In this document: positions 11,457 to 63,926 of the stretch, piece by piece
Position numbering within the stretch: position 1 is the first letter of the stretch
Layout: every line of letters begins with the position of its first letter
Origin: Candidatus Uhrbacteria bacterium RIFOXYB12_FULL_58_10
Lineage (GTDB): Bacteria; Patescibacteriota; Patescibacteriia; UBA9934; GWF2-40-263
Direction of reading: 5' to 3'
DNA: 64,000 nucleotides
Assembly: GCA_943354165.1 (NCBI GenBank)
Contig: CALRBH010000002.1
Coordinates: 5,734-69,733 of the forward strand
Notes under the pieces: generated by a model
The model's input: the letters and a program-made list of their open reading frames with translations, nothing else
Database searches by the model: none
Told to the model about the DNA's origin: nothing
Position numbers and translations under genes: made by a program

Positions 11457-11625
11457 GATAGCTCCCGTACTTGGAAAGAGAACGCTCTGGTTTTACCCAG
11501 ACCTGCCAACGGCAAGTGCGCCGAAGGATACTCGAGAATGAGTGATGGGTCAAGGGTCACGGAAAATAAAACACGCAGTCCCGAGAGGGACTGCGTGAGG
11601 AAGCGACGGGCGTGTCCCGAATGCT

Positions 11626-37228: not shown

Positions 37229-38674
37229 ATGAATTCCGACCATAAAATGGTCGGTGTACTCGTTATGACTACTCACGAGTTGTGGCAAGCCGTGTTGGGA
37301 GAACTTGAATTGTCTTTAAGCAAGGCAAATTTCACAACTTGGTTTAAGAGTACCTTCGTGGCAGAGATCGGAGCAAGTGATGCGTGCATTGGCGTCCCAA
37401 ACCTTTTCACCAAAGCCTGGCTTGAGAAGAAATATCACAAGGAAATCCTGCAGAGCCTGCAAAACCTTACAGACGAACGCGTTCGGACCGTTTCCTATCG
37501 CGTAGAAGCGCGACCGACAGGTGTACAGATCATAGATTCCATTGATCCCGCTCCACTCACAAGCACGATCACCACTCATCAGGAAGCAAACGAGATTCCA
37601 CCGTTCGCTACGGAGTCCGTGCGTATACCTTCCTTTGAGAGCGGAGAATTCACTTTGAATGGCAAGTACACATTCTCCAGCTTTATCGTTGGAAAGCAGA
37701 ATGAACTCGCCCACGCCGCGGCTCAGGCCGTTTCTGGGAACCCAGGTGGCGTCTACAACCCGCTCTTCCTCTATGGTGGGGTAGGACTCGGAAAAACCCA
37801 CCTACTTCAGGCCGTTGGAAACGAACTCCTTCGAAAGAATCCGACGATCAAAGTGCTTTATGTTACCAGTGAACGTTTCACTAACGATTATATTCAAGCT
37901 GTACGCAGCGGAAAAACTCAGGATTTCAAGAACCGTTACCGCAACATCGATCTCCTTCTTGTAGACGACATTCAATTCATCGCAGGGAAGGAAAGCACCC
38001 AAGAAGAGTTCTTCCACACCTTCAACCACTTATATCAAAGCAATAAACAGATTGTTCTCACCTCCGATCGCCCTCCAAAAGCGATCCAGCAAGTGGAACA
38101 TCGCCTCGTTTCCCGTTTCGAATGCGGAATGCTCGCCGACGTAGGAAATCCAGATTACGAAACGCGCGTCGCTATCCTTGAGTCCAAGTGTCGCGACAAA
38201 AACTATCCGCTCGACCGCGACGTCATGCACCACCTCGCCACCATCGTGCAAAGCAACGTTCGAGAACTGGAAGGAGCCCTCAATAAAATCATTGCCTTCC
38301 ACCAATTCAAAAATACGCTTCCTTCGCTCGAGAGTGTGAAGCCGATTCTCTCCAGCTTCAATACGCAGTCACAGAAAAAATCCGTCACCCCAAAAATTCT
38401 CATCAGTACAGTAGCTGTCTATTTCGACGTAGCGATCGAAGACCTGCTTGGAAAGAGTCGCGAGAAGCGTCTCGCTTTTCCGCGACAGATTGTGATGTAT
38501 CTCATGCGAGAGGAACTGAAGTCGAGCTATCCTTCAATCGGGAATGAACTCGGCGGACGTGATCACACCACAGCCATGCACGCGTACGAAAAGATTTGTA
38601 ACTGTCTTTCCCAAGATGAGAAGCTTCAGCACGATATGGAACTCATCAAGCAACGCTTATACACAGCGGCATAG
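37229..38674 (+). CDS. dnaA: chromosomal replication initiator DnaA
   Basis: AAA+ Walker A LFLYGGVGLGKTHLL and C-terminal DNA-binding domain (TAMHAYEKI). Start may be the internal Met at 37265. Confidence 0.95.
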   Translation: MNSDHKMVGVLVMTTHELWQAVLGELELSLSKANFTTWFKSTFVAEIGASDACIGVPNLFTKAWLEKKYHKEILQSLQNLTDERVRTVSYRVEARPTGVQIIDSIDPAPLTSTITTHQEANEIPPFATESVRIPSFESGEFTLNGKYTFSSFIVGKQNELAHAAAQAVSGNPGGVYNPLFLYGGVGLGKTHLLQAVGNELLRKNPTIKVLYVTSERFTNDYIQAVRSGKTQDFKNRYRNIDLLLVDDIQFIAGKESTQEEFFHTFNHLYQSNKQIVLTSDRPPKAIQQVEHRLVSRFECGMLADVGNPDYETRVAILESKCRDKNYPLDRDVMHHLATIVQSNVRELEGALNKIIAFHQFKNTLPSLESVKPILSSFNTQSQKKSVTPKILISTVAVYFDVAIEDLLGKSREKRLAFPRQIVMYLMREELKSSYPSIGNELGGRDHTTAMHAYEKICNCLSQDEKLQHDMELIKQRLYTAA

Positions 38675-38991
38675 AAACATCACACAGGATATTCACAGTT
38701 GTGCGTTGATTGAGCACAATTTGTCCACATGTTATTCCTTGTCTAAAAGGTGTGGAGAAGTGGAATATATCTGGGTATAAGACTCCTCAAATCATGTGGA
38801 TAGAAATAGGGAATAATTCATCCAACCATTCCATCCCCAGTCCACACACCTTTCCCCCACGGGTCTTTCCACATGAACACAAGAATTTTTCCCGTGAATT
38901 CATTCACTGAAATCGACTTGTCCACGCCATCCACACCCCTTATTGTTACTACTAGTATATCTACATATAAACTCTTACTAATAAGCCACCT
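38675..38991. promoter_or_regulatory. candidate oriC (dnaA-dnaN intergenic): degenerate DnaA boxes plus AT-rich unwinding stretch
   Basis: ttgtccaca at 38721-29, tgtggatag, tgtggagaa, and several xTCCACA variants. A 50-nt AT-rich tract (ttattgttactactagtatatctacatataaactcttactaataa) lies immediately before dnaN. Confidence 0.45.
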
Positions 38992-40116
38992 ATGAAACTG
39001 TCGTGTACGAGAGAAAATCTGTTCCAAGGGTTGGCGATCGCAAGTCACCTCACTTCCAAGAACGTAAACCTTCCTGTTCTTCAGAACATCCTCATCCAAG
39101 CGGAGGGAGGTACAATTCGTTTCACGACAACGAATCTTGAAATTGCCGTTCGCTGCATCGTCCGAGGAAAAGTCGATGAGCCGGGTGAAGTGACGGTTCC
39201 ATCCAAATTGTTTTACGACTATGTTTCTCTCCTTCCGAACGAAACGGTTTCCGTAGATGGAAACGCAACATCGCTCTCCGTAGTGTGTGGTGGATATAAA
39301 ACCAAAATGAACGGACTGTCCGCTTCCGAGTTTCCGCTCGTTCCAGACGTTCAAGCCGCCGTCTCTGTTTCCATTCCCGTTCCAGCCCTTCGTGAAGCGC
39401 TCTCCCGAGTTCTCTTCGCCGTCTCAACCAACGAATCCCGCCCAGAGCTCACAGGCGTCTACATGCGGTTCGAAAAGACAGAGAACAGCTACAACCTCAT
39501 CTTGGCTTCCACGGACTCGTACAGGCTCTCTGAATCCGTTATAGCGCTTGAAAAAGGGTTGGAAGACAAGCAGGTCATTATCCCTGCAAGGACACTTGGG
39601 GAAGTGAACCGCATTCTTTCGGTATTTAAAGATGATGTAGAGGCCGCCGCTCACATCGAGATGCGTTTATCCGACAATCAAGCGGTATTTCGCTTCGGAA
39701 CCGTCGAGTTGGTTTCAAGAATTATCGAAGGAAACTACCCAGATTACCGTCAGATCATCCCAAAAACCTTCGAAACCACATCGGTTATCGACCGTGACGA
39801 CTTCGTAAAGTCGGTGAAGACCGCCGCGTTGTTTTCAAAGAATGGTTTGTTCGACGTAACCCTTTCATTCGCTAAGGATGGCCTTACGGTTCGCTCCGTC
39901 GACGCCCAGCGCGGGGAAAACACCGCGATATGTCCTGCAAATGTCACAGGGAAGGACAATACCGTGACCGTAAACTATCGATATCTCCTCGATGGATTGT
40001 CCGCCTGTGCCAGCGACAACGTCATTTTCGAAATGATCGATGCAAGCAATCCGTGTGTTGTACGTCCATCGGACGCAAAAGGCTATTTATACATTGTGAT
40101 GCCGATTAAGCAGTAG
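38992..40116 (+). CDS. dnaN: DNA polymerase III beta sliding clamp
   Basis: 374 aa with three-domain clamp architecture. Position directly after dnaA. Confidence 0.9.
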   Translation: MKLSCTRENLFQGLAIASHLTSKNVNLPVLQNILIQAEGGTIRFTTTNLEIAVRCIVRGKVDEPGEVTVPSKLFYDYVSLLPNETVSVDGNATSLSVVCGGYKTKMNGLSASEFPLVPDVQAAVSVSIPVPALREALSRVLFAVSTNESRPELTGVYMRFEKTENSYNLILASTDSYRLSESVIALEKGLEDKQVIIPARTLGEVNRILSVFKDDVEAAAHIEMRLSDNQAVFRFGTVELVSRIIEGNYPDYRQIIPKTFETTSVIDRDDFVKSVKTAALFSKNGLFDVTLSFAKDGLTVRSVDAQRGENTAICPANVTGKDNTVTVNYRYLLDGLSACASDNVIFEMIDASNPCVVRPSDAKGYLYIVMPIKQ

Positions 40117-43967: not shown

Positions 43968-44000
43968 AAAAAAGCTCCTCATTTCTGGGGAGCTTTTTTG
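43968..44000. terminator. bidirectional intrinsic terminator (aaaaaagctcc-tcatttctg-gggagctttttt)
   Basis: Sits between the 3D-domain gene and tRNA-Cys. Confidence 0.6.
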
Positions 44001-44115: not shown

Positions 44116-44559
44116 TTACATCGCTTCACGGGCAAGTGTGGCGATATCAAGCTCGTCCATGTGCGACAGGTTCTTCGGAACTTCACCTTTGATACGAGCT
44201 TGTAGATCCGTGTGAAGCGCGGCCTTAAGCTCGTTCATGTTCTGCTGTGCGTCGCACAGCACAATCGACTCGAATTCGTCGTGGCGGAAACGGCGGAGAA
44301 GATCTTCGTTAATCTTGCGATGAAGCTCTGCACGAGTGAGATCATCTCGGTTGTCGTTACTTGAGGTCGATCGAACGTCGCCAGCCCCCGTCACGGAGTT
44401 CTGATGATCGCGACCAGGCTGTTCCTCTTCCTTGGAAGAGATGAACGCGAGCACTTCGACCTCGCTATTCGCGGCGCGGAGGAACTTTGCACGCTCATTT
44501 CCGGCGACAACGATCATGGTGTTGCTATCAAATGGGCGGACGGAGGAGGGGAGGGTCAT
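44116..44559 (-). CDS. hypothetical protein, possibly host-attachment/baeRF-like
   Basis: 147 aa. N-terminal MIVVAGNERAKFLRA resembles the xVLVADGSRARIF start of Host_attach-type proteins. Weak assignment. Confidence 0.4.
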   Translation of the reverse strand: MTLPSSVRPFDSNTMIVVAGNERAKFLRAANSEVEVLAFISSKEEEQPGRDHQNSVTGAGDVRSTSSNDNRDDLTRAELHRKINEDLLRRFRHDEFESIVLCDAQQNMNELKAALHTDLQARIKGEVPKNLSHMDELDIATLAREAM

Positions 44560-44566
44560 AAAAAGG

Positions 44567-44612
44567 GTCTGTTAGGGCGGTTAGGGTTGTAAGGGCGGTA
44601 AGGGGCTAAAAA
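44567..44612. repeat. GTWAGGG 9-bp tandem repeat (4-5 units), locus 1
   Basis: gttagggcg-gttagggtt-gtaagggcg-gtaagggg, upstream of a TATAAT box and the near-leaderless ATG of 44664. Confidence 0.6.
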
Positions 44613-47513: not shown

Positions 47514-48617
47514 ATGCGTCTCGTCATCATCGGCGGGGGAATCGCTGGCGTAACTGCGGCTGAAGAGGTCCGCAAACTCGATTCTGACGCCGAGATCACC
47601 ATCCTGTCCGAAGAATTTCACCCGCTCTACAGCCGGGTCCTTTTACCTCATTTCATTAAAGGAAAGGTGTCTCGCGAGCGTGTTTTCCTTAAAAAGCCCG
47701 AATGGTATTCCGAGAAAAATATCGATTGGCAGCCGGGGGTCGTGGTGAAGTCTATCGATACGAACAACAAGTTTGTTCATACGTCCGAGGAACGCGAGAT
47801 CGAATACGACAAACTTCTCATCGTGACCGGCTGTGACGTCCGCACGATTGGCGAAGACGGAAGCAACGTGTCGTATTGGCGTACGCTCGATGACACCGAT
47901 CATCTTCTCAAGCTGATCGCTTCAAATCCGGCGAAGGCGACCGTCTTCGGCGGTGGATTCATGGCATGCGAATATGTGAATGCGTTCGCACATCATGGAG
48001 TGTCGACCTCCGTCCTGACACGAGGACCTTGGTTCTGGTCAAAAATTCTTTCGAAAGAATCTGGCACCCTCATCAACGCGCACCTCGCCGCGCGTGGTGT
48101 CGACGTAACTCCAAACGCCACCGAGCCAACCGTGATGGATGACAACACGATCTTCGGCATCGGCATCGGCATTCACCCAGAACTTTCGTTGATGCGCGAC
48201 GCGGGTATCGAAGTGAACGAGGGAGTGAAGACGAACGAGTATCTCGAAACGAACGTTCCCGACGTCTACGCCGCCGGCGACGTCGCTGAATTCATGGATG
48301 TGACCGCCGGCCGCCAGCGGGTCGTCGGTAACTACATGAACGCCCAAATGCAGGGTCGAGCTGTCGCTAAGATCATTTGCGGGGAAAAGGTACGGTTTGA
48401 GCTGGTTTCCTCATACGCGACCAATGCCTTGGGTCTGGAAATCATCTTTATTGGCGATACCGACCGAAATGCCGCCGATTCCGTCGAAGTTCAAGGAAGC
48501 GCCAGAGAAGGGGCGGTTTCGGAAAGGTTCTTCCGAGGAGGGAAGTTGGTGGGCGCTGTGCTCATAAATAAGAACCTGGAACGGAAGGTAATTACTGACG
48601 AAATCCGGGGAAGCTAG
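47514..48617 (+). CDS. FAD/NAD(P)-dependent pyridine-nucleotide-disulfide oxidoreductase (ferredoxin reductase-like)
   Basis: N-terminal Rossmann VIIGGGIAGVTAAEE. Second dinucleotide-binding segment. AAGDVAE near the C-terminus. Translationally adjacent to the ferredoxin gene. Confidence 0.8.
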   Translation: MRLVIIGGGIAGVTAAEEVRKLDSDAEITILSEEFHPLYSRVLLPHFIKGKVSRERVFLKKPEWYSEKNIDWQPGVVVKSIDTNNKFVHTSEEREIEYDKLLIVTGCDVRTIGEDGSNVSYWRTLDDTDHLLKLIASNPAKATVFGGGFMACEYVNAFAHHGVSTSVLTRGPWFWSKILSKESGTLINAHLAARGVDVTPNATEPTVMDDNTIFGIGIGIHPELSLMRDAGIEVNEGVKTNEYLETNVPDVYAAGDVAEFMDVTAGRQRVVGNYMNAQMQGRAVAKIICGEKVRFELVSSYATNALGLEIIFIGDTDRNAADSVEVQGSAREGAVSERFFRGGKLVGAVLINKNLERKVITDEIRGS

Positions 48618-48674
48618 GAGCTAGTATCTAGAAGCTAGATTTTCACTAGCTCCTAACTCCTAGCTTCTAGCTCC
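48613..48674. repeat. AGCTAG-type TAG-rich palindrome (variant of the TAG-repeat family), locus E
   Basis: gctaggagctagtatctagaagctag-attttca-ctagctcctaactcctagcttctagctcc. Starts in the stop codon of the oxidoreductase gene. Confidence 0.6.
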
Positions 48675-48814
48675 TATTTCCGCTATTCATAGCAAAATAA
48701 AGCGTCAACCCCCATTGACAAAGAGGGATTTTTGTGCTATAAATCTACGTTCGGAAGATTGGAATGTTTCCAGTCTTCCGCAACAATTTTCGTCAGACAA
48801 CCCAGGAGGAAGCT

Positions 48815-49951
48815 ATGGCAGGTGGACACGGACATGGAAAGAAAGATGACCATCACGCTCCGACGCCGGATCCGAAAGGTTCCAAAGGGGGTTCGAATGG
48901 ACCCAAGCAGGGCGTCTGGGGTGAAATGCTCGGAAAAATGTCTGGATGGATTGGGGCCTTGGCCCTCATCATCCCGACCGCCATCACGGCCAGGTTCGCT
49001 GCTCTGGGCAATGACAATGCCCGTGACGCGTTCACCGGCTTCGCTGGTGAGTGGTTCGAAGACAAGTCCGAGAAGCTGATCAAGAACCCGGGCTCCTGGC
49101 TCAAAAAGCACCTGCCGAAGATCAAGCCGTTCTTCAAGGATGAGAAAGTAAACGCGGCTCTCTCTGAGCTTGCAGGCTTCCTCGTCAAAGAGGGAGCAGG
49201 CAAGCACAAAGGCGCTTACTTCTTCGGCGAGATTCTCACCCGCGGCCTCAAGGGTGTGGGTGAAGGACTCAGTGAAGATGCAGAGATCGAAGCCCTCACG
49301 GCTGGTCTCACTGCGGATGGCACATTCGCGGCAGATACCAAGGTCGGTACCGGCCCCTGTTGCTACATCAAGGGTCGCCGCAGCCGCTACGCCCACTTCA
49401 ACCTGCACTGCGAAAATCTGACCGATGACATCGAGCAGATCGAGCAGCCCAAGGAGAAGACGGTCATGATCGGCACGACCCTCGGTAGAGGCAGGGATGC
49501 AATCCCCGCCATCACCACCGAGACTCACGAGGTGAAGCCGGAAGAGGCCAAGCTGGTGAAAGGTGCTTCCATTGAGGAGGCGCGGCTCGCGAAGAAGTCG
49601 TCGGGATTCTGTCCTGATTGCACACCGGAGAAGTATTTGCGCAGGCCCGATGGCACGCTTGCCGCTCCTCCCGAGACCGAGCAGAAGGAAGATCCCAAGC
49701 ACAAAGACGAGCACGCCGATCACCACGATGAACCGAAGGGGTTCGCCGGCAAGGTGAAGGCAGTCGTCACGGGCTTCCGTGAGGCGGCCGGGGTGGTGGT
49801 GGAAACCATCAACCCGAATCCGCATCGGCTCGATGAGCTCGCGAAGCTCAAGGGCAAGCGCGCGAACAACAAGATCGACATCGCTCGTCACGCCGACGAA
49901 CTGCGCAAGCAGGATCCCAACCATCCGCTGCTCGCGAAGCTCAAGGCGTAG
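48815..49951 (+). CDS. novel His/Lys-rich protein with one N-terminal TM helix and paired-Cys motifs
   Basis: Strong RBS (caggaggaagct-ATG). MAGGHGHGKKDDHH N-terminus. TM WIGALALIIPTAITARFAAL. Cys motifs GPCCY, HCEN, CPDC. His-rich C-terminal region. GC-rich. The long antisense ORF 48737..49924 was judged an artefact. Confidence 0.5.
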   Translation: MAGGHGHGKKDDHHAPTPDPKGSKGGSNGPKQGVWGEMLGKMSGWIGALALIIPTAITARFAALGNDNARDAFTGFAGEWFEDKSEKLIKNPGSWLKKHLPKIKPFFKDEKVNAALSELAGFLVKEGAGKHKGAYFFGEILTRGLKGVGEGLSEDAEIEALTAGLTADGTFAADTKVGTGPCCYIKGRRSRYAHFNLHCENLTDDIEQIEQPKEKTVMIGTTLGRGRDAIPAITTETHEVKPEEAKLVKGASIEEARLAKKSSGFCPDCTPEKYLRRPDGTLAAPPETEQKEDPKHKDEHADHHDEPKGFAGKVKAVVTGFREAAGVVVETINPNPHRLDELAKLKGKRANNKIDIARHADELRKQDPNHPLLAKLKA

Positions 49952-49973
49952 CCCAGCAAGTAGCGACCACTGG

Positions 49974-50069
49974 CTCCGCAGAGACGACGATCCTCGTCGT
50001 CTCTGCGGATGCCCCCAACCTCAATAGAGACGGCCTAATAAGCGTGCAGACGGTCATCCGTCTGTGCAC
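49974..50069 (+). other. two perfect GC-rich hairpins without T-runs (ccgcagagacgacg-atcc-tcgtcgtctctgcgg and gtgcagacgg-tcat-ccgtctgtgcac)
   Basis: Read directly. They lie between 48815..49951 and 50112..51140. Confidence 0.5.
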
Positions 50070-50111
50070 CAGTTCGGCTCTCAACGCAGCAACCAAGAAA
50101 GAAGGTACCTC

Positions 50112-51140
50112 GTGACCACTCCAGCGATCCCTCAAAACCAACCTGCTCCCGCCCTCCCGACGCCCCCGGTGGATCCCGCCGAAGCCTTGGCACAAGCCAT
50201 GGCCGAGGACAACACCGACGCGGCGGACGAAGCCGCCCTGCAAGCGCGGGTGGACAAGCACAACACCTGGTGGGGGCGTGCAAAGGCGGCGGGGATTTTC
50301 CTCGTCGTGCTGCCCCTCGTGATCGTCGCCGGCAGCCTCTGCCTTCTGGGCGGTGGCTGGCTCGCCATCCAGTTCGATTCTCCCATGGGGGGATCACTGG
50401 CGGCACTCCTCGGTGCGATCGGCATCATCGTTGCGATGGGCCCGCTCGCGTTGCTCCAGAATGTGGCGAATTTTGCCACGGCGATCTTCGACAACGTCGG
50501 ATGGCTGAAGGCCTTCAAGGACAAGGTCCCAGACCAGATCACCACGTTCGGGCGGATGTTCTCGATCTTCGCGGCGCTGATGGGACTTTTGACCATCATC
50601 CCCGCGTACCGGGCAAGTGCGCTCATCTGGCTCCACTTCCCGCTCTCGATCACACTGCTCGTAGTGTTCTACATGTTCGCCTTGAGAGAAGCGAAACGTG
50701 ATCCCGAGGACGAGCTGAGCAAAAACCTGGCAAGCAGTGGTCGCCTCATGGGCACCATCGCGAAGGTAGCGATCGTCGTGGCGGCTCTCTCAGCGATTAT
50801 CAACGTATCTCCCGAGGCGCGTGAAGTTCTGCTCGACCAGGGCGGTATCCTGCTCTTGGTCGCCATCGCTCTCATCTATGTCGCCGCAAAGACAGAGAAG
50901 ACGAAGATCACGGTCTTCTCTCTCCTCGGGGCTGCAGTGGCGTGTGGGCTCGCGGTGGTGATGGTGACTCGGGACCAGCCCAAGCACGCTCAACCCGCTG
51001 CGGTCGACTGGACCGTGATTGCCGAGCAAGCAGGGAAGTCGAAACCGCCGCGGTACGTCCCACAAGCTCCTTCCAGCACCAAACGGCCGCTCACCCGCAG
51101 TGAGTTCAAAGCGGAGTTCGACGCCATCGGCATCGAATAA
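50112..51140 (+). CDS. novel polytopic membrane protein (about 7 TM) with Pro-rich N-terminus
   Basis: GTG start after RBS gaaagaagg. Seven hydrophobic helices. GC-rich. No family recognised. Confidence 0.5.
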   Translation: MTTPAIPQNQPAPALPTPPVDPAEALAQAMAEDNTDAADEAALQARVDKHNTWWGRAKAAGIFLVVLPLVIVAGSLCLLGGGWLAIQFDSPMGGSLAALLGAIGIIVAMGPLALLQNVANFATAIFDNVGWLKAFKDKVPDQITTFGRMFSIFAALMGLLTIIPAYRASALIWLHFPLSITLLVVFYMFALREAKRDPEDELSKNLASSGRLMGTIAKVAIVVAALSAIINVSPEAREVLLDQGGILLLVAIALIYVAAKTEKTKITVFSLLGAAVACGLAVVMVTRDQPKHAQPAAVDWTVIAEQAGKSKPPRYVPQAPSSTKRPLTRSEFKAEFDAIGIE

Positions 51141-51196
51141 CGCCCACGTACGATAAACCCCCATCACATCTGTGAGTGGGGGTTTCGTCTTTTCGT

Positions 51197-51408
51197 GGGG
51201 CGGTTGGGTCTGTGGGGGCGGTAAGGGTGGTGAGGGTAGTAAGGGTTGTGAGGGCCGACTCTGCCCCTTACAGTCCATTACAGCCCTTACCGCCCTTACA
51301 ACCCATGAAACTGGCCAAAGGCCAGTTTCACTTAACTCAAGAATATGCTTAACCCAGCTATATATCGTGTCAACACCCCTTGACAAAAGTCTAAAAAAGT
51401 GGTATCTT
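51197..51408 (+). repeat. GTAAGGG/CCCTTAC palindromic repeat + small hairpin + TTGACA-N17-TATCTT promoter cassette, locus 2
   Basis: Seven GTNRGGGNN units (51197-51259) are followed by their inverted CCCTTAC units to 51307, then hairpin gaaactggcc-aaa-ggccagtttc, then a promoter at 51380-51408. A near-identical cassette lies at 63690-63884. Confidence 0.65.
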
Positions 51409-51519
51409 TATCCCGATGTCGAATGAAGCGTACGTGTGCGGATGGTGGGTATTTCTGCCATTTGCACCCGTACCGTTCCTTCGACAAGTACGTTGAAGCA
51501 ACTACAAGGAGTACGGCAG

Positions 51520-52200
51520 ATGAAAATTCTGATGATTCTCGCACTCGTTCTCACGTCGGCCTGTGCCACCGGCTTCGGCCTCGCCTTCGAGACCGATGAT
51601 CGCTACGCCGACTCCGTGAAGTCGGGCGAAGTGAAACGCGATGTGACCGGCGACACGTCCGATGGCGTCAGCACCGACACCACGCTCACCACCACGTTCA
51701 CCCCGGTCAAGGAATCCTCGCGGTGGAGCCTCTTGCTAAACACACCGGAGGGGATCGCCAAGATCTCGAACGCCGGTGCCGTGCGCGATGTCGCGCGAAA
51801 GGGTGACCCGGCCGTGAGCACCAACGACGGCGCCAACATCGCCACCAACGATGCGGCCGTCGGCGGAGGACTCTACGGCAGCGCGTACGGCGGCGGTGGA
51901 ACGAGCCGGCGTAAAGCCATGCTCCAAGCCAACGCAGCCCGCACTCTGCAGCTGCAACAACAGCAACCGTTTGTTCTCCCCACGAGCAGAATGGCTTCCC
52001 AGAAGGAAGTCGAAGTCGTGAAGGAAGACGTCGGCAAGCTGAAGAAAGGCATCAAAGTGATCGCGAAGCAGGTGGAGGAGCTGACCCCAGAAACGTCAGC
52101 CACTCCTCCCGCTCCCGCTCCGCCGCCGGCGCCCGTGACCAGCACGCCGCCGGACAAACCCAGCGGCAAACAACCGGGCGTTCCAGAAACGATCGACTAG
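51520..52200 (+). CDS. hypothetical lipoprotein (Gly/Ala/Pro-rich)
   Basis: RBS caaggag. Signal/lipobox MKILMILALVLTSAC. Pro-rich C-terminus. Confidence 0.5.
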   Translation: MKILMILALVLTSACATGFGLAFETDDRYADSVKSGEVKRDVTGDTSDGVSTDTTLTTTFTPVKESSRWSLLLNTPEGIAKISNAGAVRDVARKGDPAVSTNDGANIATNDAAVGGGLYGSAYGGGGTSRRKAMLQANAARTLQLQQQQPFVLPTSRMASQKEVEVVKEDVGKLKKGIKVIAKQVEELTPETSATPPAPAPPPAPVTSTPPDKPSGKQPGVPETID

Positions 52201-52310
52201 CTCGATCAGCGTCCATTCTCACAACTCTTTTCCCAGAGAGACTTCAATCTCTGGGCTTCCCGCAAGCTGCCGTGTATTTCGCACGGCCGCTTACGCAGAA
52301 GGACTCTCCC

Positions 52311-52793
52311 ATGAACAATCGCTTCTTTTCCCTCGTGTTCGTTCTCATCACCCTCACCTCGGCCTGCGCCAGCACCCAGAACCGCGTGCTGCAGCCCGAG
52401 TTCACCCTCCCGTCCTTCACCCTCGCGGCCTTCGCCGAAGGCTCCGACGTGCAGGCGGGGATCGGCGGCTGCACCCGCAACGGCCGCGGCCTCTGCGTGA
52501 CCTACGCAGCGAACAAGATCGACAACCATGACCTGCGCGATCTCCAGCAGATGTACCTCATCTGTGCCTACGATCCCGCTGACGGTAGCAAGATCGTGAC
52601 CGGCTCTGCCAACGGATGCATCCGGGCCTTCGACAAGATGTCCCCGATCTTCATCGACAATGTTCCATTGCGTGGTCAGGTCACCATCACTCTCGAGCAG
52701 GTCGTCTCCCTCCAGGAACCGCCCGTGATGCTCGCCCGCCGTACCTGCACGAAGGTCCCGGGTCCGTACGAGAACTTCATCAATTGCAACTAA
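52311..52793 (+). CDS. hypothetical Cys-containing lipoprotein
   Basis: Signal/lipobox MNNRFFSLVFVLITLTSAC shares the LTSAC lipobox with the preceding gene. Six further Cys residues. Confidence 0.5.
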   Translation: MNNRFFSLVFVLITLTSACASTQNRVLQPEFTLPSFTLAAFAEGSDVQAGIGGCTRNGRGLCVTYAANKIDNHDLRDLQQMYLICAYDPADGSKIVTGSANGCIRAFDKMSPIFIDNVPLRGQVTITLEQVVSLQEPPVMLARRTCTKVPGPYENFINCN

Positions 52794-52824
52794 ATGAAAA
52801 GAGGGCCAAACTGGCCCTCCACTG

Positions 52825-52856
52825 AACCTGACCACTCGGTCAGGTTTTCTGTTTGT
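52825..52856. terminator. intrinsic terminator (gaacctgacc-actcg-gtcaggttttc)
   Basis: Sits between convergent 52311..52793(+) and the pilin array(-). Confidence 0.55.
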
Positions 52857-52864
52857 ATTCTCAA

Positions 52865-53245
52865 TTAACCTGTTCCGGATGCCGTGGCCAGCGACGAAAC
52901 GACGAAGTTTGCGATGGCGTAGGCGGCGACAATGATCACGAGACCGATGATCGAGTTAGTGATGAGCTTCTTGGCCTGTTCCACCTTCTTTCCCTCACCC
53001 TGGTCTGTGAGGTAGAGGAAACCTGCGTAGACGATAATGACCACGAAGATGATCCCGAGAAGACCGAGGAAGACGTTAATAAAACGTCCGATCAGCTCTG
53101 GTAGCGATTGTGTGCCTACGTTAAGTTTTGTGGCATTAAGTGTGCCAACTGCATCATTAATACCCTGGGCGTGGGTAATAAGCGGCAGGAACGCAGCGCC
53201 TACAGCAGCAGAGACAGCACCGATACGAGCGGTAAGACGGTTCAT
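52865..53245 (-). CDS. VirB2/TrbC-like pilin paralog 1
   Basis: Signal peptide. Conserved core INVFLGLLGIIFVVIIVYAGFLYLTDQGEGKKVEQAKKLITNSIIGLVIIVAAYAIANF (TM-loop-TM with AKK motif). Confidence 0.65.
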   Translation of the reverse strand: MNRLTARIGAVSAAVGAAFLPLITHAQGINDAVGTLNATKLNVGTQSLPELIGRFINVFLGLLGIIFVVIIVYAGFLYLTDQGEGKKVEQAKKLITNSIIGLVIIVAAYAIANFVVSSLATASGTG

Positions 53246-53285
53246 AGATATGGAGATAATTAGTCGATTGGTAGTATATCACGCT

Positions 53286-53726
53286 TTAGGCGGAAGGGAG
53301 CTCATCCGGGAGTGGAGCCCCTGGCCCGGTCTGATTCTGGGAACAGACCGGATCCAGCGGATTGTCTGCACAGATTCTCGCCCGTTCGGCTTCAACCGCT
53401 CCGCGATCCTCGAAGATCCCAAAGATGAGGTTCAAGAGGATGAAGTTTGTCAGGGCGTAGGCGCTGATCACGATGACGATCCCGATGACCGCATTACTGA
53501 TCGTTCCCTTGGCTTTTTTGATCTGCTCCTCGTTTCCCTGAGAGGTAAGATACAGGAAACCCGCGTACACGAGCAAGATCACCAGGGCAAGACCCAGCAT
53601 CCCGAGGACGATGTCGATGAGATATCCGATGCTTTCGGCAATATTGGGAGCGGTGGATCCAGTTGCAAACCCGCCCGTACCTGCGGCGCTGTCCAGACTA
53701 GATTGAAACGAAGATAAGGCGCTCAT
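53286..53726 (-). CDS. VirB2/TrbC-like pilin paralog 2
   Basis: Same core (IDIVLGMLGLALVILLVYAGFLYLTSQGNEEQIKKAKGTISNAVIGIVIVISAYALTNF). Divergent N- and C-termini. Confidence 0.65.
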   Translation of the reverse strand: MSALSSFQSSLDSAAGTGGFATGSTAPNIAESIGYLIDIVLGMLGLALVILLVYAGFLYLTSQGNEEQIKKAKGTISNAVIGIVIVISAYALTNFILLNLIFGIFEDRGAVEAERARICADNPLDPVCSQNQTGPGAPLPDELPSA

Positions 53727-53735
53727 AGGGAGGGA

Positions 53736-54182
53736 TTATGAACCGGACAAGAATACCAATTGCGGAAGGAAGAATGAAACGATCGTGAAGGCGGACACGA
53801 CGATCACGATACCAATAACTGCATTTACCAACGCACCTTTTGCTTTTTTGACCCGCTCAACATCTCCCTGGGCCGTGAGGTACAGAATTCCTCCCCAAAC
53901 AAACAGGACGACGAGGATAAGTCCGGATAAGGCGAGCACAGCATTCACAATCTGACCAATAAGCGGAGCGAGTTTTTGTGGTTCACGGCCAAATCCCGCC
54001 GCATTTCCGGCGTCCTGTAGCCCACCAAGTGTACTCTGCGCCCGCGCGATGGGCGGAAACGCCAATAACCAAAGACTCACAGTCGCTATCCAGGAGGAGT
54101 TTCGCATAACGTTTAAGGGCGCCCCGAGAGGCGCCCTTATGCGCCATGCCCCCTCGCCGTCCCGATTCCCCTCCTTCGCCAA
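53736..54182 (-). CDS. VirB2/TrbC-like pilin paralog 3
   Basis: Core IVNAVLALSGLILVVLFVWGGILYLTAQGDVERVKKAKGALVNAVIGIVIVVSAF. Likely start at internal Met 54107 (MRNSSWIATVSLWLLAFPPIARA). Confidence 0.6.
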   Translation of the reverse strand: MAKEGNRDGEGAWRIRAPLGAPLNVMRNSSWIATVSLWLLAFPPIARAQSTLGGLQDAGNAAGFGREPQKLAPLIGQIVNAVLALSGLILVVLFVWGGILYLTAQGDVERVKKAKGALVNAVIGIVIVVSAFTIVSFFLPQLVFLSGS

Positions 54183-54223
54183 GGAGGGGTTAGGGGTGGT
54201 TGCCGAGAGGTTGGCCTGTCTGT

Positions 54224-54655
54224 TTAGCTGGTAGCGGTCGCAAGGCGGCCGATCACGAAGGTAGCGATGGCGAAGCTTGAGAGGATGATGGCGAGCCCGA
54301 TCACACCCGAGATCATGAGCTTCTTAGCCTGCTTGACCTTGTCGTCATTGCCGCCGGACGTCATCCAGAGGAAACCTCCGTAAAGGATGATGACCACTGC
54401 GACGATACCGAGGAAGCTGAGAGCCGTGTTGATAATGCTGGCAATGGTGGTGGTGAGTTCCTGATTGCCGAGACCCGAGGCTCCGGCAAAAGCATCTTTG
54501 CCTGATCCTGAGTCTCCGCCGAAGAAGAAGTCCAGGTCGCTGCCTGCTGCTGGTGCTGGTGTCTGTGCCTTCGCAAATGGAGCGAGGGCGAACGTGGTTG
54601 CGGTGGCGCCTGCGGTTGCTGACCAGCCGACAAGCTTGGCAATGGAGAGCTTCAT
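54224..54655 (-). CDS. VirB2/TrbC-like pilin paralog 4
   Basis: Signal peptide MKLSIAKLVGWSATAGATA. Core IINTALSFLGIVAVVIILYGGFLWMTSGGNDDKVKQAKKLMISGVIGLAIILSSFAIATF. Confidence 0.65.
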   Translation of the reverse strand: MKLSIAKLVGWSATAGATATTFALAPFAKAQTPAPAAGSDLDFFFGGDSGSGKDAFAGASGLGNQELTTTIASIINTALSFLGIVAVVIILYGGFLWMTSGGNDDKVKQAKKLMISGVIGLAIILSSFAIATFVIGRLATATS

Positions 54656-54680
54656 AAGTTATGCCCTTGTGGGCTTATGG

Positions 54681-55049
54681 TTAAACGCTGCCCGTTGTGA
54701 TGGCGCCTACCAGCGCATTCACAAGAGCGTACGCGGTGAATAATACCACAATGCCTATGGAGGCCCAAATCAACGTATCCTTTCCTTTCTGAATCATCTT
54801 CGGATTCCCCTGGGAGAGGATCCACATGAACCCGCCATAGATGAAGGCGAGCAGGGCGAGGGCCCCGGAGAAGCCGAGGAGAGCCGCTACGATCTGTCCG
54901 ATGATTACGTTGATGTCGGATGTGCCTTTTGGATTAGCGGGCGTTCCACCGATCGGATTTATGAGCGTGGCGGCATGTACGACCGCGACGAGGAGAAAAC
55001 TCGCGAGCACGGTTCCGCCAATGACGAAGTGTTTTTTAGAGATTTTCAT
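54681..55049 (-). CDS. VirB2/TrbC-like pilin paralog 5
   Basis: Start at MKISKKHFVIGGTVLASFLLVAVVHA. Core IIGQIVAALLGFSGALALLAFIYGGFMWILSQGNPKMIQKGKDTLIWASIGIVVLFTAYALVN. Confidence 0.6.
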   Translation of the reverse strand: MKISKKHFVIGGTVLASFLLVAVVHAATLINPIGGTPANPKGTSDINVIIGQIVAALLGFSGALALLAFIYGGFMWILSQGNPKMIQKGKDTLIWASIGIVVLFTAYALVNALVGAITTGSV

Positions 55050-55057
55050 AGGTCGGC

Positions 55058-55651
55058 TTATGGAGTGGGGGCAATAAGTTCTACACACTCTCCGTTCGCG
55101 TTTTTTGCGCAGAATACTCTCCTAAGCGTCGTGATGGCCGCAAAGGCGATGAAGACGATCACCAGCCCGATCGTTGCAATCCTCAACCCATCCTTTCCTT
55201 TCTTGATGTTCTCATCAAATCCGCCAGGAAGGTATGCGGCGCCAATCCATCGGACTCCGGAAATAGTGTACATGAGGAAGACGAGCGCGCCCACAATTCC
55301 GAGAATGAACACGCCGACATTGTTCACGACCGTCATGACGTCCGTCAGTTGGCAATCGCCGGTGTTGTAACACTTTGAAGCGATGTCCTGCATGAATGGA
55401 CCAACATCCGCGTGGCTGCATGTGTCCTCTTTGCAGACACCAGTGCCTTTTGGGGTAGCTGGAGTGGTTGTAGATCCTGGTGTAGTGGAGGCGGGAGCAC
55501 AAGGTGATCCTGTGTTACTACAGCATGCAAGGCATTCTTGTCGTTGTCGACTTGCATCCGGCAGAGGCGTGCAAAATTGCTGGACGCAACTTTCTGCGGA
55601 GGCGACAAATGGAGATACAAGGAAAACAAGTACGATGAACAAAGATCTCAT
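55058..55651 (-). CDS. VirB2/TrbC-like pilin paralog 6 with Cys-rich N-terminal extension
   Basis: Signal peptide MRSLFIVLVFLVSPFVASA, then about 70 aa with 12 Cys. Conserved core VFILGIVGALVFLMYTISGVRWIGA ... IKKGKDGLRIATIGLVIVFIAFAAI. Confidence 0.6.
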   Translation of the reverse strand: MRSLFIVLVFLVSPFVASAESCVQQFCTPLPDASRQRQECLACCSNTGSPCAPASTTPGSTTTPATPKGTGVCKEDTCSHADVGPFMQDIASKCYNTGDCQLTDVMTVVNNVGVFILGIVGALVFLMYTISGVRWIGAAYLPGGFDENIKKGKDGLRIATIGLVIVFIAFAAITTLRRVFCAKNANGECVELIAPTP

Positions 55652-63689: not shown

Positions 63690-63884
63690 GTAAGGGCGGT
63701 AAGGGCGGTAAGGTTCGTACGGCAAGCAACTGTCTGTCCCCTTACAGTCCATTACTACCCTTACCACCCTTACAGCCCCTTGAACCGGCCAAAAGGCCGG
63801 TTTACGCGTATACGTGTTTACCGCTATATCCAGCCAAATAACTTGCCAACAACTCTTGACAAAAGGTCAAAATTGTGGTATAAA
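63690..63884 (+). repeat. GTAAGGG/CCCTTAC palindrome + hairpin + TTGACA-N17-TATAAA promoter cassette, locus 3
   Basis: gtaagggcg-gtaagggcg-gtaagg ... ccccttacagtcc-attactaccc-ttaccaccc-ttacagcccc; hairpin gaaccggcc-aaaa-ggccggttt; promoter at 63856-63884. This parallels 51197-51408. Confidence 0.65.
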
Positions 63885-63926
63885 TATGGGGCGAAAATGT
63901 TCCTTAACCCTTGCCAGGAGTCATAG

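What the first reader, a model, noticed from the sequence alone, without database searches (positions are those of the whole stretch)
48700..52860. GC-rich block of four novel envelope genes between the Fe-S locus and the pilin array
Four co-oriented genes with strong Shine-Dalgarno sites encode: a His/Lys-rich single-TM protein with paired-Cys motifs (GPCCY, CPDC); a 7-TM protein; and two lipoproteins sharing the unusual lipobox LTSAC. Local GC is visibly higher (about 60+%) than the roughly 30-55% seen in other parts of the window, and the block shows the same antisense-ORF artefacts as 10.5-13 kb. It is delimited by a TAG-palindrome at 48613-48674, two T-less GC hairpins at 49974-50069, the GTAAGGG cassette at 51197-51408 and a terminator at 52825-52856. 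Together with the downstream pilin array this looks like a horizontally acquired or rapidly evolving cell-surface module of unknown function. This is my best candidate for an undescribed system in the window.
Basis: partly seen in the sequence, partly recalled or inferred. Interest (0 to 1): 0.65.

Follow-up and report, generated by a model that had tools for sequence, protein, structure and literature searches.

The report
Fast-evolving envelope gene cassette beside pilins
Four real but unannotatable membrane and lipoprotein genes form a cassette that sits at the same chromosomal spot, next to a pilin gene array, in many Candidatus Uhrbacteria (tiny, probably host-dependent bacteria); it is inherited in place rather than recently imported, diverges unusually fast, and is a candidate partner of the pilins in cell-surface contact.

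Summary
There are four co-oriented genes: G1 48815-49951, G2 50112-51140, G3 51520-52200 and G4 52311-52793. The described hairpins are present, and this is the GC-richest 4-kb stretch of the window (60.0% vs 52.8%).

None of the four proteins matches Pfam, NCBIfam, PHROGs, PADLOC or PDB sequences. A full HMMER scan of 1.84 billion representatives found at most one non-trivial relative each.

The "horizontally acquired" reading is not supported. In every Uhrbacteria locus that extends past the FNR (pyridine-nucleotide oxidoreductase) gene of the NifU-ferredoxin-FNR operon, a cassette of the same architecture lies next to a VirB2-like pilin array. Ten loci hold one; in nine it lies directly after FNR. 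It consists of a soluble part A plus a polytopic membrane part B (usually one fused protein), a Gly/Tyr-rich lipoprotein C, and a secreted protein D. The extra GC recurs in every genome with a cassette directly after FNR, whatever its base GC. No tRNA, integrase or repeat flanks the block.

Sequence similarity between lineages is mostly lost. G3 is hypervariable, yet its leader hairpin is 98% conserved. Two of the window's three best consensus promoters drive the block, about 10 kb from dnaA.

Best reading: a vertically kept, fast-diverging, probably highly expressed envelope module that works with the pilin array. Its function is unproven.

The parts
48610..48681 (.). CTAG-rich imperfect palindrome directly after the FNR stop codon. 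It looks like a terminator and marks the left border of the block.
   Evidence: Inverted repeats I4, I6 and I7. RNA fold -35.2 kcal/mol, z = -3.9.
48715..48743 (+). Promoter P1 for G1-G2: TTGACA, 17 nt, TATAAA, with TG before the -10 element.
   Evidence: Read from the sequence. One of only 3 matches to TTGACAAA-N12-TGnTAT in 64 kb, against 0.06 expected.
48815..49951 (+). G1, 378 aa, the 'A' part. His/Lys-rich N-terminus, one hydrophobic segment (46-64), conserved H194, C199 and C266-P-x-C269-T-P. It corresponds by position to the soluble N-terminal half of the fused AB proteins of relatives.
   Evidence: ORF and AGGAGG site. No family hit. Homologues: P0007/L012 at 91% identity with dN/dS 0.15, and L013 709-1749 at 25% identity, BLASTP E = 1e-9.
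49975..50009 (+). Perfect 16-bp hairpin with a 3-nt loop and no T tract, in the G1-G2 spacer.
   Evidence: both spacer hairpins together -55.1 kcal/mol, z = -8.5. L013 has a 16-bp hairpin of different sequence at the same place.
50044..50067 (+). Second spacer hairpin: 10-bp stem, GTGCAGACGG/CCGTCTGCAC.
   Evidence: L013 has GTGCGGACGA/TCGTCTGCAC at the same place.
50112..51140 (+). G2, 342 aa, the 'B' part. Seven hydrophobic segments. A conserved loop motif Q-x3-N-F-x4-F-x-N ... K-D ... G-R lies between TM2 and TM3. Variable loop at about 50800-50883.
   Evidence: Homologues: P0009 at 34%, E = 4e-11, and L015 at 70%. hhalign to the TM half of the fused AB proteins gives E = 1.5e-4, probability 52%. 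MAFFT aligns the same motif independently. dN/dS 0.42.
51205..51330 (.). GTAAGGG palindrome with 9-nt period (51205-51304) plus a perfect 11-bp hairpin (51306-51330). REP-like or terminator-like element after G2.
   Evidence: -81.6 kcal/mol, z = -6.2. A second full copy lies at 63690-63773 and a half copy near 44570-44605. Absent at the orthologous site of L015.
51380..51408 (+). Promoter P2 for G3-G4: TTGACA, 17 nt, TATCTT, with TG extension.
   Evidence: The same promoter type stands upstream of the C gene in L015, L013, L009 and L002.
51417..51486 (+). Long hairpin at the predicted 5' end of the G3-G4 transcript.
   Evidence: Inverted repeat I3. The whole leader 51409-51522 folds at -44.9 kcal/mol, z = -4.4. 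It is 98% identical to L015 over 51418-51477, while the G3 protein is only 41% identical.
51520..52200 (+). G3, 226 aa, the 'C' part. Lipoprotein with lipobox LTSAC, a hypervariable Thr/Asp-rich N-region, a Gly/Tyr-rich motif, a coiled coil, a Pro-rich tail and a conserved C-terminus VPETID.
   Evidence: Homologues: P0008 at 38-42% and L013 (coiled coil only, E = 1e-7). DNA identity to L015 falls to about 40-47% inside the gene, with an 83% island at the Gly/Tyr motif. dN/dS 0.76 overall and 0.91 in the N-region.
52311..52793 (+). G4, 160 aa, the 'D' part. Lipoprotein with lipobox LTSAC and six further Cys; predicted beta-rich.
   Evidence: L015 homologue 74% identical, dN/dS 0.39. The L013 counterpart matches only in the signal peptide. 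AlphaFold2 pLDDT 38.5, so only the secondary structure is worth noting.
52800..52847 (.). Two back-to-back terminator hairpins: 52800-52820 serves the minus-strand pilin array, and 52824-52847 plus a T run serves G4. Right border of the block.
   Evidence: -31.2 kcal/mol, z = -5.5.
52865..55651 (-). Convergent array of six VirB2-like pilin genes (Pfam T4SS_pilin, PF18895). It is context and the proposed functional partner, not part of the original finding.
   Evidence: An array lies next to the cassette in all eight loci that extend far enough.

Best explanation
The block is a vertically inherited, locus-conserved, very fast-diverging two-operon envelope cassette typical of Candidatus Uhrbacteria (Patescibacteria/CPR).

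Operon 1 (promoter P1, G1-G2) encodes the two halves of what most relatives make as one 694-835-aa protein. That protein has an N-terminal soluble domain with no signal peptide, therefore probably cytoplasmic, often carrying a CPxC knuckle. It is followed by a polytopic membrane domain with an extracytoplasmic C-tail. Two conserved hairpins in the G1-G2 spacer probably set the relative amounts of the two products.

Operon 2 (promoter P2, a 5'-terminal hairpin, G3-G4) encodes two lipid-anchored surface proteins. G3 keeps its signal peptide, Gly/Tyr motif and C-terminus while the rest is hypervariable.

Shown here:
- The genes are real and under selection.
- The architecture and the position are conserved.
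- The extra GC recurs in every genome with a cassette directly after FNR.
- The AB gene stays next to the VirB2-like pilin array even where the array has moved.

Inferred:
- High expression, from consensus promoters, the 5' hairpin, GC3-rich codons and closeness to the replication origin.
- Surface exposure, with diversification driven by hosts or phages.
- G1 and G2 form the membrane base, and G3 and G4 the surface accessories, of the pilin-based host-contact structure.
For: Real genes:
- dN/dS is 0.15 (G1), 0.42 (G2), 0.76 (G3) and 0.39 (G4).
- Homologues sit in the same context in L012, L013 and L015.

Conserved locus:
- The order NifU-Fdx-FNR, then a 4-5.5 kb gap, then a pilin array and a solute-binding protein (SBP) gene is seen in L002, L003, L005, L009 and L011.
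- Each gap holds an AB protein (fused, 744-835 aa) or split A and B genes, a lipoprotein C with a Gly/Tyr-rich stretch, and a secreted protein D.
- L017 has the same left side.

Link to the pilins:
- In L007 the pilin array is inverted and displaced. A 694-aa AB-like fusion with CSEC...CPKC follows it directly.
- L008 has neither the cassette nor pilins after FNR.

B-domain homology across lineages:
- hhalign E = 1.5e-4, and MAFFT aligns the same motif.

Not a recent import:
- The cassette is 3-11 GC points above its flanks in genomes of 42-63% GC.
- No tRNA or direct repeats flank it. There are no PHROG or PADLOC hits.

Expression cues:
- Two of the three TTGACAAA-N12-TGnTAT sites in 64 kb drive the two operons.
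- The leader hairpin is 98% conserved.
- dnaA and dnaN lie at 37.2-40.1 kb.

Literature: VirB2-like pilin arrays are highly variable, often near the origin, and essential in one cultivated CPR species (PMC12102498).
Against: - No component matches any T4SS profile. TrbL/VirB6 and the other Pfam models gave nothing at E <= 0.1.
- No VirB4 is present in the 64-kb window.
- Homology between lineages is demonstrable only within the window/L012/L013/L015 group, plus weakly for the B domain. The A, C and D parts of L002, L011 and the L003 group, and the L007 AB protein, are not significantly similar. The shared architecture could therefore reflect replacement by unrelated genes.
- The link to the pilins rests on adjacency in about 10 related loci. 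That is phylogenetically shallow sampling.
- High expression is inferred from sequence only.
- G1 has its hydrophobic segment at the N-terminus, whereas its L013 homologue has it at the C-terminus. G1's topology is unresolved.
- Both AlphaFold2 models were unusable (pLDDT 45 and 38).
Confidence: 0.45

Rival explanations
1. A stand-alone variable surface coat. G1-G4 form an abundant, rapidly diversifying envelope layer that helps the cell evade phages or host recognition. It has no mechanistic link to the pilins and sits beside them only because both are origin-proximal, highly expressed envelope loci.
For: - G3 is hypervariable between conserved ends.
- G2-G4 have higher dN/dS than the neighbouring FNR gene and pilin genes.
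- The D position appears to have been replaced.
- Lineages share architecture but not sequence.
- No T4SS homology was found.
Against: - AB moves together with the pilin array in L007, where C and D are missing.
- The cytoplasmic A domain and the conserved cytoplasmic loop of B are hard to explain for a passive coat.
Confidence: 0.3
2. A metal- or redox-related membrane module belonging to the upstream Fe-S operon (IscS-NifU-ferredoxin-FNR). G1's His-rich patches and Cys motifs would bind metal, and G2 would be a transporter.
For: - The cassette directly follows FNR in nine loci.
- G1 has His-rich stretches and conserved H194, C199 and CPxC.
- A VIT1-like gene lies upstream.
Against: - The His-rich patches are not conserved. 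P0007 has a deletion in one, and the L013 homologue lacks the N-terminal one.
- The cassette has its own consensus promoter after a terminator-like palindrome.
- In L007 the AB gene has left FNR and stays with the pilins.
- No transporter or metal-binding family matches.
Confidence: 0.1
3. A recently acquired genomic island: foreign DNA of higher GC inserted between the Fe-S locus and the pilin array.
For: - The block is the highest-GC 4-kb stretch in the window.
- Its proteins are orphans.
- G1 is more similar to its L012 copy than the flanking FNR gene is (dS 0.35 vs 1.0). This would fit recent exchange between strains.
Against: - The same architecture occupies the same site in nine related loci.
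- Cassette GC tracks each host genome with a constant positive offset, rather than being uniform.
- There are no tRNA, integrase or att-like repeats and no phage or defence hits.
Confidence: 0.05
4. Gene-calling artefact: the ORFs are chance open frames in GC-rich DNA.
For: A mirror-image 395-aa antisense ORF exists, and many overlapping ORFs are listed.
Against: - dN/dS is below 1 in the + frames.
- Shine-Dalgarno sites, promoters and terminators are in register.
- Homologues have conserved motifs, signal peptides and lipoboxes.
Confidence: 0.02

Closest known systems
VirB6/TrbL-type and PrgH/TcpH-type polytopic T4SS membrane proteins, the pilus or channel platform of type IV secretion systems
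   Same: G2, and the fused AB proteins of relatives, are polytopic membrane proteins (5-7 predicted TM segments) joined to a large soluble domain. They are encoded next to VirB2-like pilin genes. In established T4SS biology VirB6 is the membrane platform on which VirB2 polymerises (my own knowledge).
   Different: There is no sequence match to TrbL/VirB6 or any other T4SS model. The soluble domain is N-terminal here. No virB4, virB3 or virB8 is nearby. Fold comparison was not possible because the models had low confidence.
VirB2-like pilin arrays of Patescibacteria (Microb Genom 2025, PMC12102498)
   Same: The neighbouring six-gene PF18895 array fits that description. The paralogues are variable, the array is near dnaA, and arrays are sometimes interrupted or flanked by non-pilin genes.
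   Different: That survey scored only known T4SS profiles. The passages I searched by keyword do not describe the AB/C/D cassette; I did not read the whole paper.
Variable surface-lipoprotein loci and flexible cell-envelope islands at conserved chromosomal sites (for example Mycoplasma Vlp/Vsa lipoproteins, and the envelope 'metagenomic islands' of marine bacteria)
   Same: Flanks are conserved while content is hypervariable. Signal peptide, lipobox and C-terminus are kept while the exposed middle diverges. Identity between close strains is mosaic.
   Different: No repeat-driven phase-variation machinery or silent cassettes were found. The cassette also includes a cytoplasmic domain and a polytopic membrane protein, and its GC offset is conserved. 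The comparison with these systems rests on my own knowledge.
5'-terminal stem-loop mRNA stabilisers (E. coli ompA leader, B. subtilis aprE leader)
   Same: A long stable hairpin begins within about 10 nt of the predicted transcription start of an envelope-protein operon.
   Different: No experimental 5' end or half-life is available. There is no Rfam family. The function is inferred only from position and from 98% conservation.

Membership tests
T4SS VirB6/TrbL (PF04610) or PrgH-type polytopic component | Significant match to the family profile | tested here: not met
   Pfam scans at E <= 0.1 of G2 and of the AB/B proteins of L002, L003, L009 and L011 gave no TrbL/VirB6 hit. The L007 AB protein was scanned only against PHROGs and PADLOC, also without a hit. 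The PDB profile search was negative.
T4SS VirB6/TrbL (PF04610) or PrgH-type polytopic component | Polytopic inner-membrane protein with at least 5 TM segments | tested here: met
   Seven hydrophobic segments in G2 and 5-7 in the fused AB proteins. This is a hydropathy scan, not a dedicated topology predictor.
T4SS VirB6/TrbL (PF04610) or PrgH-type polytopic component | Encoded in a cluster with virB4 and other T4SS genes | tested here: not met
   VirB2-like pilins are adjacent. No VirB4-sized ATPase or other T4SS domain was found among the window ORFs scanned.
Bacterial lipoproteins (Lgt/LspA substrates) | N-terminal signal peptide ending in a lipobox with an invariant Cys | tested here: met
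   G3 reads MKILMILALVLTSAC and G4 reads ...FVLITLTSAC. By inspection both fit the PROSITE PS51257-type pattern, which I recalled from memory. A Cys is kept at or near this position in the L015 and L013 homologues; in the MAFFT alignment of the G3 family it is offset by one or two columns.
Bacterial lipoproteins (Lgt/LspA substrates) | lgt and lspA present in the genome | not tested
   Not seen among the ORFs scanned. The rest of the genome was not available.
Horizontally acquired genomic island | Absent from the same site in related genomes | tested here: not met
   A cassette of the same architecture lies directly after FNR in L002, L003, L004, L005, L009, L011, L012, L013 and L017, and beside the pilin array in L015. 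Four of these loci are truncated and show only part of the cassette: L004 A, B and C; L012 only A; L015 B, C and D; L017 only AB.
Horizontally acquired genomic island | Composition atypical for the host genome | tested here: inconclusive
   GC is 7 points higher here. The same offset recurs in every genome with a cassette directly after FNR and tracks that genome's GC. It is therefore a property of the locus, not a foreign signature.
Horizontally acquired genomic island | Mobility hallmarks: flanking tRNA, integrase or transposase, direct repeats | tested here: not met
   The nearest tRNAs are at 43999 and 59469. There are no flanking direct repeats, no PHROG hits, and no integrase or transposase domain among the flanking genes or the window ORFs scanned against Pfam.
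Zinc ribbon / CxxC metal-binding domain (G1) | Two CxxC-type knuckles, or an equivalent set of four ligands, conserved in homologues | tested here: inconclusive
   CPxC, C199 and H194 are conserved in G1, P0007 and L013. L007 has CSEC...CPKC and L002 has CPKC. The L003 group lacks the motif. No model or Pfam match is available.
Anti-phage defence systems (PADLOC) and phage proteins (PHROGs) | Match to any model | tested here: not met
   Zero families at E <= 0.01 for G1-G4 and two AB proteins.
Known structured RNA families (Rfam 15), for the hairpins and the leader | Match at the gathering threshold | tested here: not met
   Only sub-threshold matches to miRNA-precursor models, which reflect generic long hairpins.

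The most novel reading that the evidence does not exclude
The AB protein (G1 plus G2 here), together with the C and D lipoproteins, is a previously unrecognised assembly and anchoring machine for VirB2-like pilins in Uhrbacteria. It would work without a neighbouring VirB4-type T4SS, and its surface parts would be kept hypervariable by host or phage pressure. This would be a new kind of pilus base in CPR bacteria.
Probability: 0.15. Interest if true: 0.75.

Novelty: new variant of a known kind. Interest (0 to 1): 0.45.

Why it matters
CPR/Patescibacteria depend on contact with host cells. Their VirB2-like pilin arrays are essential in the one species tested genetically (PMC12102498), yet the parts that assemble or anchor these pilins are only partly known.

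A cassette that is conserved in position and architecture, escapes every profile library, stays with the pilin array and carries strong expression signals is a concrete candidate for those missing parts, or for a variable surface coat.

The locus also gives a clean case for two questions:
- How can synteny and architecture persist while sequence similarity disappears?
- Why does one locus keep a GC excess across genomes whose base composition differs by 20 points?

If instead the genes are unrelated orphans, the finding is only typical CPR dark matter.

Tried and rejected
Protein family and structure searches:
- Pfam, NCBIfam, PHROGs and PADLOC scans of G1-G4 and of relatives' proteins gave nothing above noise.
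- The sub-threshold hits (YwiC, HemJ, YscO, ectoine synthase, Peptidase_G2) were rejected. All lie far below the curated cut-offs.
- PDB profile searches were negative.

Large homologue searches:
- Word-index searches found only self or near-self for G1 and G2. An alignment query of the B domain found only 3 proteins.
- The full HMMER scan, run on G1-G4 joined into one query, found 3 non-trivial hits.
- The WD40-repeat hit to G4 (P0010, E = 1.4e-4 summed over 9 repeats) matches one 'DGS-IV-G--G-IR' strand motif. I regard it as motif-level similarity, not homology.
- The metagenome scan with the AB alignment returned only 2 loci.

Structure prediction:
- AlphaFold2 on G2 (4-sequence alignment) gave pLDDT 45.5, and on G4 (single sequence) 38.5.
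- Both models are unusable, so no fold search was run.

Comparisons between lineages:
- hhalign and HMMER between lineage-specific versions were significant only for the G2 family against the TM half of the fused AB proteins.
- C-type lipoproteins find each other among the top hits in both directions, but at E = 0.4-4. This may be driven by composition.

Other:
- The Rfam hits are generic hairpin matches to miRNA models.
- I considered and rejected a prophage or island origin, a defence system, and G3/G4 being paralogues.

Full report
**1. What is in the sequence**

The region holds four + strand genes with Shine-Dalgarno sites:
- G1, 48815-49951, 378 aa
- G2, 50112-51140, 342 aa, GTG start
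- G3, 51520-52200, 226 aa
- G4, 52311-52793, 160 aa

A hydropathy scan gives one moderately hydrophobic segment in G1 (residues 46-64), seven in G2, and N-terminal signal-type segments in G3 and G4. The string LTSAC occurs only twice in all six frames of the window, at the ends of the G3 and G4 signal peptides.

The block is 60.0% GC against 52.8% for the window. It is the GC-richest 4-kb stretch, and the rise is mainly at third codon positions: GC3 is 0.72-0.85 against 0.59 +/- 0.10. The rise is real but moderate, and other 1-kb windows reach 0.59.

The long antisense ORF opposite G1 is an artefact. The + frame has dN/dS = 0.15 against a homologue.

**2. Organism and setting**

The neighbouring genes are ordinary chromosomal genes of a CPR bacterium.
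- Upstream lie a baeRF/Host_attach gene, a VIT1-like gene, IscS, NifU, a ferredoxin and an FAD oxidoreductase (FNR).
- Downstream lie six convergent T4SS_pilin (PF18895) genes and a solute-binding protein (SBP) gene.
- dnaA and dnaN lie at 37.2-40.1 kb, where the cumulative GC skew turns. The block is therefore about 10 kb from the replication origin.
- The closest genomes found through the FNR protein are Candidatus Uhrbacteria MAGs. FNR is 44-60% identical across the ten loci, and NifU is 72-80% identical where it is complete.

**3. Homology searches**

G1-G4 have no hit at or near threshold in Pfam, NCBIfam, PHROGs or PADLOC, and profiles of the G1, G2 and G4 families have none among PDB sequences.

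I ran a full HMMER scan of 1.84 billion cluster representatives with the four proteins joined into one query. Beyond self-hits it returned only the following:
- P0007, matching G1 at 90% identity
- P0009, matching G2 at 34%, E = 4e-11
- P0008, matching G3 at 38%, E = 1e-12
- a weak motif-level match of G4 to a WD40-repeat protein

The contigs that carry these relatives show the same four-gene split cassette in the same context. L013 reads FNR, 346 aa, 341 aa, 246 aa, 187 aa, pilins. L015 reads a partial G2 homologue, 236 aa, 160 aa, pilins. G1 is homologous to the L013 346-aa protein over almost its full length (E = 1e-9). G3 matches its L013 counterpart in the coiled coil (E = 1e-7). G4 matches its counterpart only in the signal peptide.

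**4. The locus in more distant relatives**

In L002, L003, L005, L009 and L011 the order FNR, then 4-5.5 kb, then a convergent pilin array (followed, in L002, L003 and L005, by the SBP gene) is kept. G1-G4 give no tblastn hit in those gaps. L004 and L017 show the left side only.

Reading the gaps shows the same architecture each time:
- A large protein of 744-835 aa. It has an N-terminal soluble half without a signal peptide and a C-terminal polytopic half. In L002 it is split into a 495-aa protein with a C-terminal TM segment and a 357-aa TM protein.
- A lipoprotein of about 160-250 aa with a Gly/Tyr-rich stretch.
- A secreted protein or lipoprotein of 230-320 aa.

None of these proteins hits Pfam.

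Profile comparisons link only one pair. The G2 family matches the TM half of the fused proteins at hhalign E = 1.5e-4, probability about 50%. MAFFT independently aligns the same loop motif, with Q116, G147, R148, P177, A190 and L191 invariant in 7 sequences. C-type lipoproteins find each other among the top HMMER hits of 1858 ORFs, but without significance.

A CPxC knuckle recurs in the soluble part of the window group, L002 and L007, but not in the L003 group.

G1 plus G2 are therefore best read as the split form of the AB protein. This is shown for B, weakly. For A it rests on position and architecture.

**5. Link to the pilins**

In L007 the pilin array is inverted and separated from FNR by an unrelated gene. 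A 694-aa AB-like fusion follows the array directly, and no C or D genes are present. In L008, a more distant genome, neither the cassette nor pilins follow FNR.

Wherever the sequence extends far enough, AB and the array are neighbours. This is the only evidence for a functional link. It comes from about ten related loci.

**6. Evolution**

The cassette is 3-11 GC points richer than its flanks in every genome with a cassette directly after FNR, although those genomes range from 42 to 63% GC. The offset tracks the host genome. This argues for in-place evolution under a local bias, such as expression-linked codon choice or GC-biased gene conversion. It argues against import from one foreign pool.

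No tRNA, integrase or flanking repeat is present.

Against L015, which is about 80-93% identical in DNA over G2, G4 and pilin 1, the picture is mosaic:
- The body of G3 drops to about 40-47% identity.
- An 83% island remains at the Gly/Tyr motif.
- The G3 promoter and leader region is 77-98% identical, and 98% over the hairpin (51418-51477).

dN/dS values are as follows:

| Gene | dN/dS |
|---|---|
| G2 | 0.42 |
| G3 | 0.76 (0.91 in the N-terminal variable region) |
| G4 | 0.39 |
| Pilins 1 and 2 | 0.15 and 0.24 |
| FNR | 0.12 |
| G1 | 0.15 |

Cassette genes also show dS values about two to three times lower than their flanks. G1 is closer to its L012 copy (91% aa) than FNR is (81%). This points to codon constraint or to recent exchange between strains.

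L013 and L002 are about equally distant by FNR (57-60%). L013 keeps recognisable G1-G3 homologues and L002 keeps none. The locus may therefore undergo replacement as well as divergence. This remains unexplained.

**7. Regulatory features**

Only three sites in 64 kb match TTGACAAA-N12-TGnTAT, against 0.06 expected. Two of them precede G1 and G3. The same promoter type precedes the C gene in L002, L009, L013 and L015.

The G3-G4 transcript would begin with a hairpin at 51417-51486; the leader 51409-51522 that contains it folds at -45 kcal/mol. That region is almost invariant against L015. Its position resembles 5' stem-loop mRNA stabilisers; this is inference.

The two hairpins without a T tract between G1 and G2 have counterparts in L013 with the same stem lengths, 16 bp and 10 bp. 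Stem 1 has a largely different sequence there, so pairing is kept through changes on both arms. They are conserved RNA or DNA elements, perhaps setting the G1:G2 ratio.

The GTAAGGG palindrome is a repeated intergenic element. It has full copies at 51205 and 63690 and a half copy near 44570, and it is missing at the L015 site. It is not a marker of a lipoprotein paralogue.

Rfam has no family for any of these elements.

**8. How it most likely works**

Shown here:
- The genes are real and under selection.
- They form two transcription units.
- The products are a membrane-associated soluble protein, a 7-TM protein and two lipobox proteins.
- The locus is conserved, and AB is adjacent to the pilins.

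Inferred from charge distribution and from the fused forms:
- The A domain and the conserved TM2-TM3 loop of B face the cytoplasm.
- The B C-tail faces outward. In relatives it carries a Cys pair.
- G3 is anchored by lipid. It extends through a coiled coil and a Pro-rich linker, exposing a hypervariable domain.

My best reading is that G1/G2 form a membrane base and G3/G4 form surface accessories of the pilin-based contact apparatus. The cassette would be strongly expressed and diversified by host or phage pressure. Confidence is 0.45.

The main rival is a stand-alone variable coat with no mechanistic tie to the pilins (0.30). A metal or redox role tied to the Fe-S operon (0.10), a recent island (0.05) and an artefact (0.02) are less likely.

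**9. Comparison with known systems, and verdict**

The module resembles a VirB6/PrgH-type platform in being polytopic, joined to a soluble domain, and adjacent to VirB2-like pilins. It fails the membership tests on profile match and on clustering with virB4.

G3 and G4 meet the sequence definition of lipoproteins.

The behaviour of the locus resembles variable surface-protein loci and flexible envelope islands.

The protein families are new to all libraries tested, but function is unproven. I rate it a new variant of a known kind: a lineage-specific, hypervariable envelope cassette accompanying a pilin array. Interest is 0.45. It would be higher only if the pilin-platform role were confirmed.

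Noticed in passing
window 51205-51304, 63690-63773, and a half copy near 44570-44605: A G-rich palindromic element with 9-nt period, (G)GTAAGGGNN repeated, occurs in intergenic DNA. Each full copy is followed by a short perfect hairpin and a consensus promoter. It is absent from the orthologous site of L015, so it behaves like a REP/MITE-type insertion.
   Followed up: partly
window 51417-51486 (L015 about 870-940): The 5' leader hairpin of the G3-G4 operon is 98% identical between the window and L015, although the G3 protein is only 41% identical. It is a strongly constrained RNA or DNA element with no Rfam family.
   Followed up: partly
window 49975-50067; L013 1750-1835: The two hairpins without a T tract in the G1-G2 spacer are conserved in position and stem length (16 bp and 10 bp) in L013. 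Stem 1 has a largely different sequence there, so the changes are compensatory.
   Followed up: partly
window 37229-40116: dnaA and dnaN lie here, and the cumulative GC skew reaches its minimum near 39-40 kb. The window therefore spans the replication origin, and the pilin array and cassette are origin-proximal, as reported for T4SS genes in many CPR.
   Followed up: partly
window 10509-12948: A second GC-rich stretch, with ORFs of 315 and 440 aa and GC3 of 0.71-0.88, also has no Pfam hit. GC-rich orphan genes may be a recurring feature of this genome.
   Followed up: no
window 48715, 51380, 63856: Only three sites in 64 kb match the extended promoter TTGACAAA-N12-TGnTAT. The third precedes an ORF starting near 63925 (MTSGQPFADSER...), which runs off the window.
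   Followed up: no
L003 14033-14503, L004 13952-14470, L005 13995-14480, L017 5677-6018 (all minus strand): A conserved 113-172-aa ORF of unknown function lies on the opposite strand between the AB gene and the C lipoprotein gene in the L003 group. The window has no counterpart.
   Followed up: no
window 48815-49951 vs L012; window 47517-48617 vs L012: G1 is more similar to its L012 copy (91% aa, dS 0.35) than the adjacent housekeeping FNR gene is (81% aa, dS 1.0). G2 and G4 likewise have lower dS than the pilins against L015. This suggests codon constraint, GC-biased conversion or recent recombination.
   Followed up: partly
window 55058-55651 (minus strand): The last pilin gene of the array encodes a 197-aa protein. 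It has a long Cys-rich, Thr/Pro-rich N-terminal extension ahead of the T4SS_pilin domain.
   Followed up: no
window 44116-44559 (minus strand): This gene matches baeRF family 12 / Host_attach ('protein required for attachment to host cells'). It lies just upstream of the Fe-S operon, and the contig carrying P0009 has the same arrangement.
   Followed up: no
window 52560-52640 (G4 residues 83-123): G4 contains a single WD40-blade-like motif (YDPADGSKIVTGSANGCIRAFD). It matches the repeats of a 1533-aa WD40 protein at E = 1.4e-4 summed over 9 repeats. This is probably strand-motif similarity only.
   Followed up: partly
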